A stretch of DNA of 64,000 nt from Promethearchaeota archaeon. Lineage in GTDB: Archaea; Asgardarchaeota; Lokiarchaeia; Sigyniarchaeales; SOKP01. Location: NCBI GenBank assembly GCA_016839555.1, contig JAEOUA010000011.1, positions 192,001 to 256,000 on the forward strand, in the 5' to 3' direction. Numbering within the stretch: position 1 is the first letter of the stretch; each line of letters opens with the position of its first letter. The translations under genes were made by a program, and so were the position numbers. Of this stretch, positions 37,410-42,524 are shown one piece after another. A model generated the notes under the pieces. That model made no database searches. It worked only from the letters and a program-made list of their open reading frames with translations, and was not told the DNA's origin.

Positions 37410-38117
37410 CTATAACATTTTGGGATCTATCATGGGAACAACGAATATATCCCAAACAGGTTTACTATTATAATTCACCTTTTTAACCGCTTTTTTTAAG
37501 CGTTGATGATACATCTTGGGTATTTCCACAACTATATTAACTCGTTCTCCATTACCAACTCTTTCAATTAATGGAATACACCATTTTTGTGGGACATTAG
37601 CATACATTCCTTCAACTAATACTAATTTTTGATATAATTCATACGATTCTTCGCCATATTGATTAATAATGTTATCAATATCTTTCCAGAACTCTTGATA
37701 TGTTTTTGGTATAAATTTTAGAGATTTTTTTTGCTTCTTTAATTCTTCTCTAAATGTATCTTCAAATTTTTCGACAATATCCTTAGCTAATCCGCTTAAA
37801 ATTGGTTCAGTAGAAGCGGAAGACTGGGAGCGGGGGTATTGAATCATTAATGCTACAAATACAAACTCTCCAGAGCTAAATCGTGCTTCTAAATCGCCTG
37901 ATCGCATTAAGCTAACACCAGAAGGAAAATGGATTTCTTTTGCAAAATTATTAAGAGCAACAAGAAATCCACTAAGTAATTGATCATAGGAGTCTTCGGG
38001 AACTGTAATTATCGTATATTTATATAAAAGTAATCCTGAGTCTTTAGTAATTATATAGACTTCTACAGGATTTGATATTCTTTCATATTCAAAATTCTCT
38101 ATATTATTCTTCTCCAT
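37410..38117 (-). CDS. Longin-domain protein
   Basis: VYIITKDSGLLLY...DQLLSGFLVALNNFAKEI...IVEKFEDTF. Confidence 0.72.
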   Translation of the reverse strand: MEKNNIENFEYERISNPVEVYIITKDSGLLLYKYTIITVPEDSYDQLLSGFLVALNNFAKEIHFPSGVSLMRSGDLEARFSSGEFVFVALMIQYPRSQSSASTEPILSGLAKDIVEKFEDTFREELKKQKKSLKFIPKTYQEFWKDIDNIINQYGEESYELYQKLVLVEGMYANVPQKWCIPLIERVGNGERVNIVVEIPKMYHQRLKKAVKKVNYNSKPVWDIFVVPMIDPKML

Positions 38118-39594: not shown

Positions 39595-41130
39595 TTAAAT
39601 TTTATATAAATGACTCGCAATCATATCAGATATATGTAGGAATTCGCCCAGCTTATTTGGCTTGAATGGCTTGTATTTAGCCCATCTTCCATGGTGGAAA
39701 ATTATAGCCTGATAAATGTCTTTATCTATCGAAACCCCATACCTCTTTAAAACTGCAAGAGTTTCATCTACATGAAGATCTTTTCCATCGAAGCCAAAAA
39801 TTTCCTTAATTTCATGGTTAATGGCATCTTTTTCATAGTTTGAAGAGTAAATTTTTCTCACTTGGAATTGTTTTCGATAAGAATAATATGATACTTTTCC
39901 CATATCATGAAGGATACAGGATTTCACTACTCGTTTTAGGTCAAGATCTGAATAATTATCAGAATATGGAATGTTATATTGGTCCAAAAAGTCGCGATAT
40001 TCTGAAAAAAGGTTAGGATTTTTATAAAGTACATAAGAAATGTTAGAAACTAATAAAATATGGTCAAATAATCCTCCTCGATAATCACCATGGTAGCCTC
40101 CTAACGCAGCAGGAAGTTTTTTGGACTCTTTTAACATAATTTCTATGTTTTTCATTGCTTCTTCCTCTGTATTAAGCAAATTTAGAAAAAATTCTATGGA
40201 ATGACATTTAAATGGTAATTTATTTTGAATTTCTTTATTACAGAAAAGAAGTTCTTTCTGTTTTATTCTTTCCGTCTTATAATAATCTTTAACTTGAATA
40301 ACTAATTGTATTAAATGATGGAATCCCGAGAAACCTTCTTCTAAGGTTCGTAGTAATTCGTTAAAAGTAATTTGGCGATGAAATTTTCCACTTGTTAATT
40401 GACTAAATAAATAGATAATAAATTTATTCCGAAATTTTGAAAAATTTTTTGGAAAAGATTGATGGCCTCTACGAAATTTCATACTTTTGACTATTATTTT
40501 CAAAATTTTTTCATCAATTTTTTCTTCTAGTACGAGTTCATTTATTTTAGGTAGAATAACAGTTATAGATGTGGAATTAAAGCTTGGATCAAACAAGACT
40601 GCTAAATAAAATCCCAATTTGAAACAAGCTTTTGTGAACTGATGTATTGAGGCATTCTCATTTTTAGAAATATCTTCTTGAATACTTTTTTCTAAATGAT
40701 AAAGAACTCTTGCCAGAATATCATCGTAATCATATTTTATACTTGATATTTCGGGCAATTCTGCTCTTATATCTCGCCCTTCTAATAATTGCGAATTTTC
40801 AGGATTTTTTAATTCTAAAAGGGACCATTTATAATTTGTAAAGGATTGTTGTTTGAAATTTTCTTTACTGGAGTATGCTTCGAGAGAATTAAATCCAATC
40901 CAAATATCATATCCATTGAGGGCTTTTTTCTCATATCTTACATTAGTCCAATTTTTTTTAGGAATAAGGTCTAAGGAGTCTAAAAAAACAATTAGGTCAA
41001 TATCATTTGTAGCCCAATCCTCGGGAAGCGAAGGATCGAAATAACTTCCAATACCATAAATCGCGATGATATTTTCTTTATAGGTTTCTTTTAATTCAGA
41101 AATCAATCGGGTAATAAATGGTTTGTCCAT
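39595..41130 (-). CDS. Pol-beta-family nucleotidyltransferase fused to an HD-domain phosphohydrolase
   Basis: IYGIGSY...NDIDLIV...DIW NTase; helical domain; PAA..YH...GGLFDH...LHDMGK...H...HHG...HISDMIAS HD domain. Confidence 0.85.
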   Translation of the reverse strand: MDKPFITRLISELKETYKENIIAIYGIGSYFDPSLPEDWATNDIDLIVFLDSLDLIPKKNWTNVRYEKKALNGYDIWIGFNSLEAYSSKENFKQQSFTNYKWSLLELKNPENSQLLEGRDIRAELPEISSIKYDYDDILARVLYHLEKSIQEDISKNENASIHQFTKACFKLGFYLAVLFDPSFNSTSITVILPKINELVLEEKIDEKILKIIVKSMKFRRGHQSFPKNFSKFRNKFIIYLFSQLTSGKFHRQITFNELLRTLEEGFSGFHHLIQLVIQVKDYYKTERIKQKELLFCNKEIQNKLPFKCHSIEFFLNLLNTEEEAMKNIEIMLKESKKLPAALGGYHGDYRGGLFDHILLVSNISYVLYKNPNLFSEYRDFLDQYNIPYSDNYSDLDLKRVVKSCILHDMGKVSYYSYRKQFQVRKIYSSNYEKDAINHEIKEIFGFDGKDLHVDETLAVLKRYGVSIDKDIYQAIIFHHGRWAKYKPFKPNKLGEFLHISDMIASHLYKI

Positions 41131-41267
41131 AAAAATTATTATATTAAGAATCTTTTAAATCTAAATAAATTTTGCTTAGAAATCAAAAAATTTTTTTATT
41201 TTAATAAACTAGAGAAACTATAAGCAATTAAAAAATTTCTTTTAATCTCTTAATATAGTGAGGAAAT

Positions 41268-41726
41268 ATGGCACGATTGCACAGTAGGAAAAAAGGAAGA
41301 TCAGGTAGTACAAGGCCTGCACAATTGGAAAAACCCGTTTGGATTGAGCGTTCAGCAGAAGAAGTTGAAGCAGAGGTAATAAAGCTCGCAAAAAAGGGAT
41401 TTACAAAATCTCAAATTGGATTACATCTAAGAGATACATATGGAGTCCCATTAGTTAAAGTTATTACAGGAAAAAAAATAAGTCAAATTCTTGAAGAAAA
41501 CGAGCTTCGAGACCCACTTCCAGAAGATTTAACTAATTTAATTAAAAAAGCCTTAAACCTAAGGAGTCATCTTGAAAATAATAAAAAAGATTTAGAAGCA
41601 AAGAAGGGGCTCAATCGCATCGAATCAAAAATCTATAGACTACTTAAATATTATAAAAACAAAGGAGTAATAGCTAAAGATTTCAAGTACGATTCTGAAA
41701 AGGTAAGAACTTTAGTTGCTAAATAA
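41268..41726 (+). CDS. rps15: 30S ribosomal protein uS15 (S15/S13e)
   Basis: MARLHSRKKGRSGS, IGLHLRDTYGVP, LPEDL, IESKIYRLLKYYK. Confidence 0.97.
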   Translation: MARLHSRKKGRSGSTRPAQLEKPVWIERSAEEVEAEVIKLAKKGFTKSQIGLHLRDTYGVPLVKVITGKKISQILEENELRDPLPEDLTNLIKKALNLRSHLENNKKDLEAKKGLNRIESKIYRLLKYYKNKGVIAKDFKYDSEKVRTLVAK

Positions 41727-41774: not shown

Positions 41775-42524
41775 ATGAGTCAAAAGGCAAAGTATAAAGA
41801 GAAGCAATGGTTTGATGTATATGCGCCAGTAAGTTTTAATAACGAAAAGGTCGGGGAGATCATCGGATTAGAGACCACCATTTTAAATAGGACAGTGGAA
41901 GCTCTATTGTACGATTTTACCGATGACTATAACCACATTAACTGTAAGTTAAAATTTAAAGTTATTAATTTGAATCCAAAGGCGAATAAATGTGACACTA
42001 CATTAGTCGGACATGAATATACTAATGATTATGTCAGAAGCCTTGTGGGAAGAGGTGCTACAAAGGTCACCTCTATAAAAAATTATACCACTAAGGATGA
42101 ATATATATATCGCATAACAGTGGTATGTGTTACTATTCGGCGAGCTCGAAGTTCCCAACAAGTTATAATAAGAAAAATTATGAGGGAAGTTCTTCAAAAA
42201 TTTGCTGTAAAGCTTAATCACGATAAATTTATCCGAGGGATGATATTCGGAGAGTTTGAAGCTCAAATTAAAAGGATTGCGAAAACCATTTATCCGCTCT
42301 TCAGTTGTACCATCATCAAGAGTAAATTAATATCGATGCCCGAAGGAGGGAAAGATAAAAAAGTATCTGATGAGGATTTTGATATTATAGAATTGGAAAT
42401 CGATAGAACCCGGAAATCTGAAATAAGACGCTCGGAACGGATAAATGTCAAAAAATACGCGCAACAAAAGGCAAAAGAAGAAGAGAAAGAAACCGAAGAA
42501 GAAGTCGAAGAGGAAGAAGAATAA
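41775..42524 (+). CDS. rps3ae: 30S ribosomal protein eS1 (S3Ae) with acidic tail
   Basis: KQWFDVYAP, NRTVE..L.D, GHEYTNDYVRSLVGR, TIYPL...IIKSKL. Confidence 0.93.
   Translation: MSQKAKYKEKQWFDVYAPVSFNNEKVGEIIGLETTILNRTVEALLYDFTDDYNHINCKLKFKVINLNPKANKCDTTLVGHEYTNDYVRSLVGRGATKVTSIKNYTTKDEYIYRITVVCVTIRRARSSQQVIIRKIMREVLQKFAVKLNHDKFIRGMIFGEFEAQIKRIAKTIYPLFSCTIIKSKLISMPEGGKDKKVSDEDFDIIELEIDRTRKSEIRRSERINVKKYAQQKAKEEEKETEEEVEEEEE

What the first reader, a model, noticed from the sequence alone, without database searches (positions are those of the whole stretch)
39595..41130. Nucleotidyltransferase-HD hydrolase fusion: candidate single-chain writer/eraser or nucleotide-messenger enzyme
Seen: an N-terminal pol-beta-type NTase with intact GS and DxD motifs and a likely third Asp (YDIW), then an all-helical domain, then a complete HD domain (H...H...HD...H...HH...D) of YhaM-like appearance. 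The gene is head-to-head with rps15-rps3ae across a 137-bp gap. Established: NTase+HD combinations occur in GlnD, RelA/SpoT and some CCA-adding enzymes, where the two domains act in opposition or in repair. This protein lacks their other hallmarks (no ACT or TGS domain, no RRD motif). Inference: an uncharacterised reversible NMPylation, RNA-end repair or alarmone synthase/hydrolase, possibly linked to translation.
Basis: partly seen in the sequence, partly recalled or inferred. Interest (0 to 1): 0.72.

Follow-up and report, generated by a model that had tools for sequence, protein, structure and literature searches.

The report
Asgard nucleotidyltransferase fused to YhaM-like nuclease
This gene is real and is a one-protein version of a two-gene unit found only in Loki-type Asgard archaea: a nucleotide-adding enzyme shaped like antibiotic adenylyltransferases and HalB, joined to a nuclease-like HD domain shaped like bacterial YhaM. 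It most likely adds and trims nucleotides on single-stranded DNA or RNA ends, and its position next to ribosomal genes looks accidental.

Summary
The 511-aa ORF (39595-41130, minus strand) is real, and both halves keep their catalytic motifs. Residues 1-290 model as a two-domain ANT/KNTase/HalB-type nucleotidyltransferase: a pol-beta core with invariant G28-S29 and D43-x-D45, plus a HEPN-like helical bundle. The proposed third Asp (D75, "YDIW") is not conserved. Residues 292-511 are an HD domain whose model matches YhaM far better than any other HD protein (Z 13.7 against 8.8 for the next). It carries YhaM's H..HD..HH..D two-metal motif.

The fusion itself occurs only in this species cluster (three sequences, 77-78% identical). 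In eight other genomes the halves are adjacent genes, seven as a tight HD-then-NTase operon, with no conserved third gene. Other members of the same NTase family are fused to a RecB-like PD-(D/E)XK nuclease, to SNase, or to an OB-fold plus Zn-ribbon.

I therefore read it as a module that extends and trims single-stranded nucleic-acid 3' ends. The chemistry is inferred, not shown.

The rps15 adjacency recurs only in a 77%-identical relative, so a translation link is not supported. GlnD, RSH, CCA-enzyme and MNT-HEPN memberships fail.

Other windows of this scan found the same module independently on other DNA. No paper describing the family was found.

The parts
39595..41130 (-). Whole ORF, 511 aa (P0001): fused NTase-HD protein
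   Evidence: the same 511-aa architecture occurs in P0002 and P0003 and in metagenome locus L026
40756..41130 (-). Pol-beta-type nucleotidyltransferase core, residues 1-125 (G28-S29, D43-x-D45; G118-x-D120-x-R122 after strand 5)
   Evidence: Motifs invariant or nearly invariant. Model with alpha-beta-alpha-beta-beta-beta topology. Fold matches to ANT(3'')(9) Z 12.4, AAD(9) Z 12.1, HalB Z 11.6. Weak PF18765 hit, E 0.016.
40267..40743 (-). HEPN-like helical bundle, residues 130-288 (conserved D134, D137, R141, Y144, H145, K167, K171, R220, H251); no Rx4-6H RNase motif
   Evidence: Model. VIA match to HEPN protein AF_0298, Z 10.4, over residues 133-254. Conservation.
39598..40257 (-). YhaM-like HD phosphodiesterase module, residues 292-511; predicted metal ligands H357, H408-D409, H479-H480, D502
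   Evidence: PF01966 E 1.6e-5. Model pLDDT 94.5. YhaM 9h3f is the only Foldseek hit below 1e-3 and gives VIA Z 13.7 against 8.8 for the next hit. YhaM ligand set from PMC12107432. phrog_5889 E 3e-14.
39952..40011 (-). Insertion of about 20 residues (374-393) between the first His and the HD dyad, shared with the short cassette-type HD genes and absent from the SWIM-HD family
   Evidence: Alignment A4; marks the fusion's HD as derived from the cassette type
41131..41267 (.). 137-bp divergent intergenic region shared with rps15; presumably holds both promoters
   Evidence: the adjacency is conserved only in the 77%-identical relative L026

Best explanation
The ORF is the single-chain form of a two-gene module restricted to Promethearchaeia (Lokiarchaeia). 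The module consists of a short YhaM-like HD phosphodiesterase and an orphan nucleotidyltransferase with the two-domain ANT/KNTase/HalB architecture. Shown: both halves keep their catalytic motifs; the halves are adjacent, mostly co-transcribed genes elsewhere; no third gene is conserved. Inferred mechanism: the N-terminal module uses (d)NTPs to add nucleotides without a template to the 3'-OH of a single-stranded nucleic acid, or possibly to a protein-primed chain as HalB does. The basic face of its helical domain (R141, H145, K167, K171, R220) would hold the acceptor or the NTP. The C-terminal two-metal HD domain would act like YhaM, as a 3'-to-5' exonuclease or phosphodiesterase that trims or removes those additions. 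One polypeptide would then set the length or state of a 3' tail. In sister operons the NTase carries an OB-fold plus Zn-ribbon, which would supply the single-strand-binding function that YhaM has on its own chain. The biological role (DNA-end processing or repair, RNA 3'-end turnover, or virus defence) is open.
For: Fold of the N-half: ANT(3'')(9) Z 12.4 with 218 residues aligned, AAD(9) Z 12.1, HalB Z 11.6, HEPN-like C-domain Z 10.4. Fold of the HD: YhaM Z 13.7, 155 residues aligned, 21% identity, about 5 Z units above all other HD proteins. The H..HD..HH..D ligands match YhaM H163/H193-D194/H250-H251/D274 in order and spacing. Linkage: short HD immediately upstream of the NTase on the same strand, with a gap of about 170 bp at most or an overlap, in G006, G002, G303, L060, L061, L065 and L067; convergent and adjacent in G012; fused in G000, P0002 and P0003/L026. 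The fusion's HD shares a 20-residue insertion with cassette HDs only. Fusion partners of the NTase family elsewhere are all nucleases or nucleic-acid binders: PF01336 OB-fold plus Zn-ribbon, SNase, and a RecB-like PD-(D/E)XK domain with GKPD..EYK..QxQxY. The own genome has no separate copy of either half.
Against: No biochemical data exist. The NTase assignment is sub-threshold by sequence, and profile searches against PDB sequences reach neither ANT nor YhaM. No canonical third carboxylate could be assigned. Twelve genomes of the same family carry the NTase without any HD of this family, and about 17 carry a SWIM-HD without the NTase, so across genomes the two families co-occur no more than chance predicts. 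Gene order in the cassettes (HD then NTase) is the reverse of the fusion. The best structural matches to the NTase are small-molecule-modifying enzymes. HD enzymes of similar fold also hydrolyse nucleotides (YqeK, PgpH, dNTPases; Z about 7-8).
Confidence: 0.5

Rival explanations
1. Hailong-like nucleic-acid signal or decoy system. The NTase constitutively makes a protein-primed or free homopolymer such as oligo-dA, and the HD nuclease trims or turns it over. The module would serve antiviral defence rather than repair or RNA processing.
For: HalB is among the top three structural matches (Z 11.6, 194 of 217 residues aligned). HalB makes Tyr-primed poly-dA that cellular nucleases shorten (review PMC13434031). 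The distribution is patchy: the NTase is in 20 of 68 other genomes of one family and in 0 of 232 elsewhere in the phylum. Divergence is fast: about 45% identity against 69-73% for rpS3Ae within the genus. The nuclease partners are shuffled, as in conflict systems. The HD matches a phage family, phrog_5889.
Against: No HalA-like membrane effector or any conserved third gene lies next to the module. There are no defence-island neighbours. PADLOC gives only weak Cas3-HD hits. tblastn finds no phage relatives.
Confidence: 0.2
2. Reversible NMPylation writer/eraser acting on a protein or small molecule. The NTase would AMPylate or UMPylate a target and the HD would remove the mark.
For: The closest solved folds (ANT, KNTase, LinB, DrrA, GlnE N-domain) are adenylyltransferases of small molecules or proteins. 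MNT antitoxins AMPylate HEPN partners (8xdj and 7ae2 appear). HD domains remove UMP in GlnD (established knowledge).
Against: Every other fused partner of this NTase family is a nuclease or a single-strand nucleic-acid binder. The HD is specifically YhaM-like. No target protein gene is conserved nearby. The conserved residues of the helical domain are basic, unlike the acidic aminoglycoside pockets of ANT enzymes (inference). There is no ACT or PII context.
Confidence: 0.15
3. Synthase/hydrolase of an alarmone or cyclic (oligo)nucleotide second messenger (RSH-like or CD-NTase-like).
For: Synthetase plus HD-hydrolase on one chain is the RSH logic. HD phosphodiesterases such as PgpH and HD-GYP appear among weaker matches (Z 7.4-8.0).
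Against: Neither an RSH synthetase nor a CD-NTase is among the top 50 fold matches of the N-half. The Rel hydrolase scores only Z 7.3 against 13.7 for YhaM. No TGS or ACT domain and no sensor or effector gene is present.
Confidence: 0.05
4. Translation-linked factor co-regulated with rps15-rps3ae from the shared 137-bp divergent promoter region.
For: Head-to-head arrangement in the window, and the same synteny in L026.
Against: L026 is a 77%-identical close relative, so its synteny is inherited rather than independent. None of the eight cassettes lies next to ribosomal protein genes. The module is missing from most genomes of the family.
Confidence: 0.03

Closest known systems
YhaM (Bacillus subtilis / Staphylococcus 3'-to-5' exonuclease; PDB 9H3F; PMC12107432)
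   Same: The HD domain fold is the best match by a wide margin (VIA Z 13.7, rmsd 3.2 over 155 residues, 21% identity; Foldseek E 9.8e-5). The extended two-metal motif H..HD..HH..D is the same, in the same order and with similar spacing. In sister operons a PF01336 OB-fold, the type YhaM carries, sits on the partner NTase.
   Different: This chain has no OB-fold. The N-terminus is an NTase instead. There is a 20-residue insertion between the first His and the HD dyad. No sequence-level hit was found (profile against PDB sequences, E>1). Hexamer formation and exonuclease activity are untested.
Two-domain ANT/KNTase aminoglycoside nucleotidyltransferases (ANT(3'')(9)/AadA 7UY4, AAD(9) 6SXJ/6XZ0, ANT(4') 1KNY)
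   Same: The architecture is the same: a pol-beta NTase core with GS and DxD followed by a HEPN-like helical bundle. VIA Z is 12.1-12.4 over about 215 residues. A conserved acidic residue (D134) lies at the start of the helical domain, where KNTase has its proposed base E145 (the KNTase detail is from memory and the correspondence was not checked residue by residue).
   Different: Identity is 11-16%, below Pfam thresholds. The conserved residues of the helical domain are basic rather than acidic. The family is fused or linked to nucleases and to OB-fold/Zn-ribbon modules, not found in resistance contexts. It is confined to one Asgard family.
Hailong HalB (PDB 9DBH; template-independent, Tyr-primed poly-dA synthase)
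   Same: Comparable fold match (Z 11.6, 194 of 217 residues aligned). It is a precedent for a minimal NTase of this fold polymerising nucleotides, with the product processed by nucleases.
   Different: No HalA-type ion-channel partner gene. The priming Tyr is not identified. The partner here is an HD nuclease. Archaeal rather than bacterial.
   Same: The logic of opposing nucleotidyl-transfer and HD phosphoesterase activities on one chain. The CCA enzyme's HD repairs 3' ends, which is the nearest functional analogy.
   Different: No ACT, TGS, PolyA_pol head or RRD motif. The N-half fold is ANT/HalB-like. The HD is YhaM-like. The domain order and the helical middle domain differ.

Membership tests
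ANT/KNTase-type two-domain nucleotidyltransferases | Pol-beta fold core with G-S and D-x-D(E) metal-binding motifs | tested here: met
   G28-S29 and D43-x-D45 are invariant in close homologs; fold Z 12.4 and 12.1
ANT/KNTase-type two-domain nucleotidyltransferases | C-terminal HEPN-like helical substrate-binding domain on the same chain | tested here: met
   Model helices 135-284; HEPN protein 2hsb Z 10.4 over residues 133-254
ANT/KNTase-type two-domain nucleotidyltransferases | Sequence membership in a curated NTase family (PF01909, PF18765 or ANT-specific models) above threshold | tested here: not met
   The best hit is PF18765, E 0.016, 15.8 bits against a cutoff of 26.9. Only 3 of 12 members hit it at E<1. 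NCBIfam gives none.
ANT/KNTase-type two-domain nucleotidyltransferases | Catalytic base / third carboxylate (for example AadA E87, KNTase E145) | tested here: inconclusive
   D75 and N81 are not conserved. D120 and D134 are nearly invariant candidates. No residue-level superposition was available.
Hailong HalB | HalB-like NTase fold | tested here: met
   9dbh_A Z 11.6, 194 residues aligned; 9dbj/9dbh Foldseek E about 1e-3
Hailong HalB | Operon partner HalA (transmembrane DNA-gated channel) | tested here: not met
   No conserved third gene around eight cassettes or the fusion
Hailong HalB | Tyr-primed template-independent poly-dA synthesis | not testable with these tools
   Needs biochemistry
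YhaM | HD domain with the extended two-metal motif H, HD, HH, D | tested here: met
   H357, H408-D409, H479-H480 and D502 are invariant in 29 sequences; YhaM set from PMC12107432
YhaM | Specific fold similarity to the YhaM HD domain, above other HD proteins | tested here: met
   Z 13.7 against 8.8 for the next hit; the only Foldseek hit below 1e-3
YhaM | N-terminal OB-fold on the same polypeptide | tested here: not met
   Pfam finds no OB-fold in P0001. The OB-fold occurs on the NTase partner in L061, L065 and L067.
YhaM | Sequence-level homology | tested here: not met
   The A4 profile against PDB sequences gives no YhaM hit at E<=1
GlnD / RelA-SpoT / class II CCA-adding enzymes | ACT or TGS domains, RSH synthetase fold, or PolyA_pol head with RRD motif | tested here: not met
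   No such Pfam or NCBIfam hits. In one search, CCA enzymes appear only at E>0.01 with TM<0.3. No RSH protein is in the N-half top 50.
MNT-HEPN toxin-antitoxin | HEPN Rx4-6H RNase motif | tested here: not met
   The only conserved Arg/His pair is R141-x3-H145, in the first helix. No conserved Rx4-6H is seen in the alignments.
Cas3 HD nuclease | Match above threshold to Cas3-HD models, and a CRISPR-Cas context | tested here: not met
   TIGR01596 gives 22.6 bits against a cutoff of 43.45; PF18019 is below its cutoff; VIA Z 6.8; no cas genes among the neighbours

The most novel reading that the evidence does not exclude
The module is a previously unrecognised, Asgard-specific system built on a HalB-like template-independent polymerase. 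The polymerase would write single-stranded (deoxy)nucleotide tails or free homopolymers, and interchangeable nucleases (YhaM-like HD, RecB-like PD-(D/E)XK, SNase) would erase or process them. It would act either as a new kind of antiviral guard or as a DNA-end-processing accessory of the Mre11-Rad50-HerA-NurA machinery, next to which three cassettes lie.
Probability: 0.25. Interest if true: 0.8.

Novelty: new variant of a known kind. Interest (0 to 1): 0.55.

Why it matters
NTase + HD pairs are a recurring way for cells to write and erase nucleotidyl marks (GlnD, RSH, CCA repair). This would be a new lineage of that logic, built from an ANT/HalB-fold transferase and a YhaM-type nuclease, and it is confined to the closest archaeal relatives of eukaryotes. 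The fused gene in this window is the Rosetta-stone evidence that the two proteins work together. It is also the most convenient single construct for biochemistry. If the transferase proves to be a template-independent polymerase, it would extend HalB-type chemistry to archaea and give a function to about 100 orphan protein clusters.

Tried and rejected
I used the genome search and the search for related loci instead.
- Sequence searches that gave nothing useful: phmmer and profile searches against PDB sequences; NCBIfam, which gave only a sub-threshold Cas3-HD hit; PADLOC, which gave only weak Cas3-HD hits; tblastn of the HD half against 50,697 phage records, with no match.
- The protein atlas returned only unnamed clusters, plus two NTP_transf_2/Polbeta clusters at 0.92.
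- BFVD gave only generic viral nucleotidyltransferases with low TM scores.
- The primary Hailong paper (PMC12360457) is not held, so HalB facts come from a review.
- Conserved third gene: rejected. All-against-all comparison of neighbours of 8 cassettes, 10 SWIM-HD loci and 10 other NTase loci found only synteny among close relatives.
- rps15 linkage: rejected.
- Mre11-Rad50 linkage: seen in L060, L061 and L067, but these belong to one NTase clade. That Mre11 type is unlinked in G006 and was not detected in G000, G002, G012 or G303 at E<=1e-15. I keep it only as a lead.
- Single origin of the HD association on the NTase tree: not shown. HD-linked NTases sit in several lineages, and many tip labels lack context.
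- Genome-level co-occurrence of the NTase with any HD of this family: not above chance.

Full report
**Observation.** The window holds one uninterrupted ORF at 39595-41130 on the minus strand (511 aa, P0001). The frame is open for only 8 codons upstream of the ATG. The same 511-aa protein, 77-78% identical, occurs in two other assemblies (P0002, P0003) and on metagenome contig Ga0209918_1002366 (L026). The fusion is therefore not an assembly artefact.

Pfam finds an HD domain at residues 355-485 above its gathering score. The N-terminus gives only a sub-threshold pol-beta NTase hit (PF18765, E 0.016).
- rps15 at 41268-41726 and rps3ae at 41775-42524, divergent across a 137-bp gap;
- a saccharopine-dehydrogenase-like gene downstream.

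**The two halves are separate families elsewhere.** A search of 5.8 billion proteins found the full-length architecture only in P0001-P0003. Residues 1-290 match a family that occurs in several forms:
- alone, at about 285-300 aa;
- with a C-terminal PF01336 OB-fold plus Zn-ribbon, at about 450 aa;
- with an N-terminal SNase;
- with an N-terminal domain of about 270 aa carrying the RecB/Cas4-type signature GKPD..(13)..EYK..QxQxY.

A profile of this family, scored against 1.84 billion representatives, found only 105 proteins at E<=1e-3 and did not run into any known NTase family.

Residues 292-511 match two HD families:
- a short form of 216-235 aa, in 36 clusters;
- a form of about 331 aa with an N-terminal SWIM-like zinc-finger domain (HDCPDY...KFCKH).

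The fusion's HD shares a 20-residue insertion (residues 374-393) with the short form only.

**Structure.** The N-half model (pLDDT 83, pTM 0.78) is a pol-beta core followed by a helical bundle. Its best matches are the two-domain aminoglycoside nucleotidyltransferases and Hailong HalB:

| Match | Z | Residues aligned |
|---|---|---|
| ANT(3'')(9) 7UY4 | 12.4 | 218 |
| AAD(9) 6SXJ | 12.1 | 214 |
| HalB 9DBH | 11.6 | 194 |

The helical part alone matches HEPN proteins (Z 10.4).

G28-S29 and D43-x-D45 are invariant in close homologs. Across divergent members the residues that persist are G28, S29, D45, G118, D120, R122, D134, Y144, K167, K171 and R220. D75, the 'YDIW' Asp, and N81 are not conserved. 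No Rx4-6H HEPN RNase motif is present.

The HD-half model is very confident (pLDDT 94.5). YhaM (9H3F) is the only Foldseek hit below 1e-3. It gives VIA Z 13.7 (155 residues aligned, 3.2 A, 21% identity), against 8.8 for the next protein, 8.0 for YqeK, 7.4 for PgpH, 7.3 for Rel and 6.8 for Cas3-HD.

YhaM binds two metals through H163, H193-D194, H250-H251 and D274 (PMC12107432). The invariant H357, H408-D409, H479-H480 and D502 here follow the same order and spacing once the 20-residue insertion is allowed for. The paper characterises YhaM as a Mn-dependent 3'-exonuclease of single-stranded DNA and RNA whose OB-fold binds the substrate.

**Linkage.** In the window's own genome the fusion is the only copy of either family. 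In related genomes the short HD gene lies immediately upstream of the NTase gene on the same strand, with a gap of about 170 bp at most or an overlap. This holds in G006, G002, G303, L060, L061, L065 and L067. In G012 the two genes are adjacent and convergent.

The partner NTase varies: alone in G006, G002, G303 and L060; OB-fold plus Zn-ribbon in L061, L065 and L067; PD-(D/E)XK-fused in G012. No third gene is conserved.

The short HD and the SWIM-HD were never found in the same genome. In G303 the cassette lies in the neighbourhood where related genomes carry SWIM-HD, and that slot is empty.

The linkage is specific to the short HD. Twelve genomes of the family have the NTase with no HD of this family, and about 17 have SWIM-HD without the NTase, so overall co-occurrence is about what chance predicts.

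The NTase family was found only in one taxonomic family: 20 of 68 other genomes there, and 0 of 232 elsewhere in the phylum. Records name the organisms Promethearchaeota or Promethearchaeia, that is, Loki-type Asgard archaea. Both halves are about 45% identical to the copies in genomes of the same genus, where rpS3Ae is 69-73% identical.

**Context.** The rps15-rps3ae adjacency recurs only in L026, a close relative. The cassettes sit next to unrelated genes:
- G006: thermosome, actin, Lrp, MsrB, HisI and an aaRS;
- G002: VWA and MoxR;
- G012: acyl-CoA dehydrogenase and thiolases.

Three cassettes border the NurA-HerA-Mre11-Rad50 operon. L061 and L067 are convergent with Rad50, with UvrD upstream. 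L060 is divergent from NurA. These three belong to one NTase clade, and the adjacency does not hold in G006. I keep it only as a lead. There are no defence-island neighbours and no PADLOC system hit. The HD does match a phage family of unknown function, phrog_5889, at E 3e-14.

**Interpretation.** Shown:
- the fusion is real and both catalytic motif sets are intact;
- it has an ANT/KNTase/HalB-fold NTase and a YhaM-fold HD;
- the two-gene linkage is recurrent and tight;
- the distribution is Asgard-restricted and patchy.

Inferred: because the same NTase core is repeatedly joined to nucleases of three unrelated folds, or to a single-strand-binding OB-fold plus Zn-ribbon, its substrate or product is most likely a single-stranded nucleic acid. 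The simplest mechanism is template-independent nucleotide addition to a 3' end (or HalB-like primed synthesis), opposed by YhaM-like 3'-to-5' trimming.

I put about 0.5 on this, 0.2 on a Hailong-like signal or decoy role, 0.15 on protein or small-molecule NMPylation, and little on alarmone synthesis or a translation link.

**Comparison and novelty.** The protein fails the membership tests for GlnD, RSH, class II CCA enzymes, MNT-HEPN, Cas3 and Hailong (no HalA). For ANT/KNTase and YhaM it passes the fold tests but fails the sequence and architecture tests. Literature searches found no description of the family. I class it as a new variant of a known kind, meaning opposing NTase and HD activities.

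Other windows of this scan reached the same module independently on other DNA (e1-5590462, e1-5590463, e1-5575448, e1-5425866). Their main claims (ANT/HalB fold, HD pairing, occasional fusion, restriction to one family) agree with what I tested here.

Noticed in passing
L024:9395-11056 (G024), L023:9850-11514 (G012), P0070: Members of the same NTase family, about 550 aa long, carry an N-terminal RecB/Cas4-like PD-(D/E)XK nuclease domain (GKPD..x13..EYK..QxQxY). Pfam sees it only weakly (PDDEXK_1 E 0.0037; Exo5 E 0.0064).
   Followed up: partly
G000:C12:36275-36604 and G000:C11:98841-99164 (both outside the window); one or two copies in nearly every genome of the family: A protein family of about 230 aa shares only the SWIM-like N-terminal domain (HDCPDY...KFCKH) of the SWIM-HD proteins. 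It was found in 67 of 68 genomes of the family through the N-terminal columns of profile A4. Its C-terminal part was not examined.
   Followed up: no
P0008, P0056, P0096: NTase family members with an N-terminal SNase domain. In P0008 this is preceded by a hydrophobic leader and followed by a Pro/Asp-rich linker and a hydrophobic stretch, which suggests an extracellular nuclease tethered to a cytoplasmic NTase. P0096 also carries a CARDB domain.
   Followed up: no
L060:1-4024; L061:6329-10747; L067:6371-10788: Three HD+NTase cassettes abut the NurA-HerA-Mre11-Rad50 operon from opposite ends, and L061 has a UvrD helicase upstream (the equal-length upstream ORF in L067 was not scanned). All three belong to one NTase clade, so this may be inherited synteny.
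   Followed up: partly
L021:6765-7702 (G006:C66): Two adjacent minus-strand ORFs (175 aa and 129 aa) both hit the Actin Pfam model, at its C- and N-terminal parts respectively. This could be a split, frameshifted or intervening-sequence-bearing Asgard actin gene.
   Followed up: no
L074 (DATKTW010000034.1): A contig labelled 'Candidatus Nanopelagicaceae bacterium' carries a 296-aa NTase of the Asgard type, the same length as in the genus-g2 loci. It is probably a mis-binned Asgard contig.
   Followed up: no
P0054: One NTase family member (481 aa) has C-terminal TFIIB/cyclin repeats (PF00382, E 2.6e-32). This is either a real fusion or a merged gene call with a neighbouring TFB gene.
   Followed up: no
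window 37410-38117 (-): A 235-aa ORF two genes downstream of the fusion has no Pfam match at E<=0.01.
   Followed up: no
window 39598-40117 (residues 338-507 of P0001): The HD domain matches phage family phrog_5889 (function unknown) at E 3e-14, far better than the generic Pfam HD model. tblastn against 50,697 phage records found nothing.
   Followed up: partly
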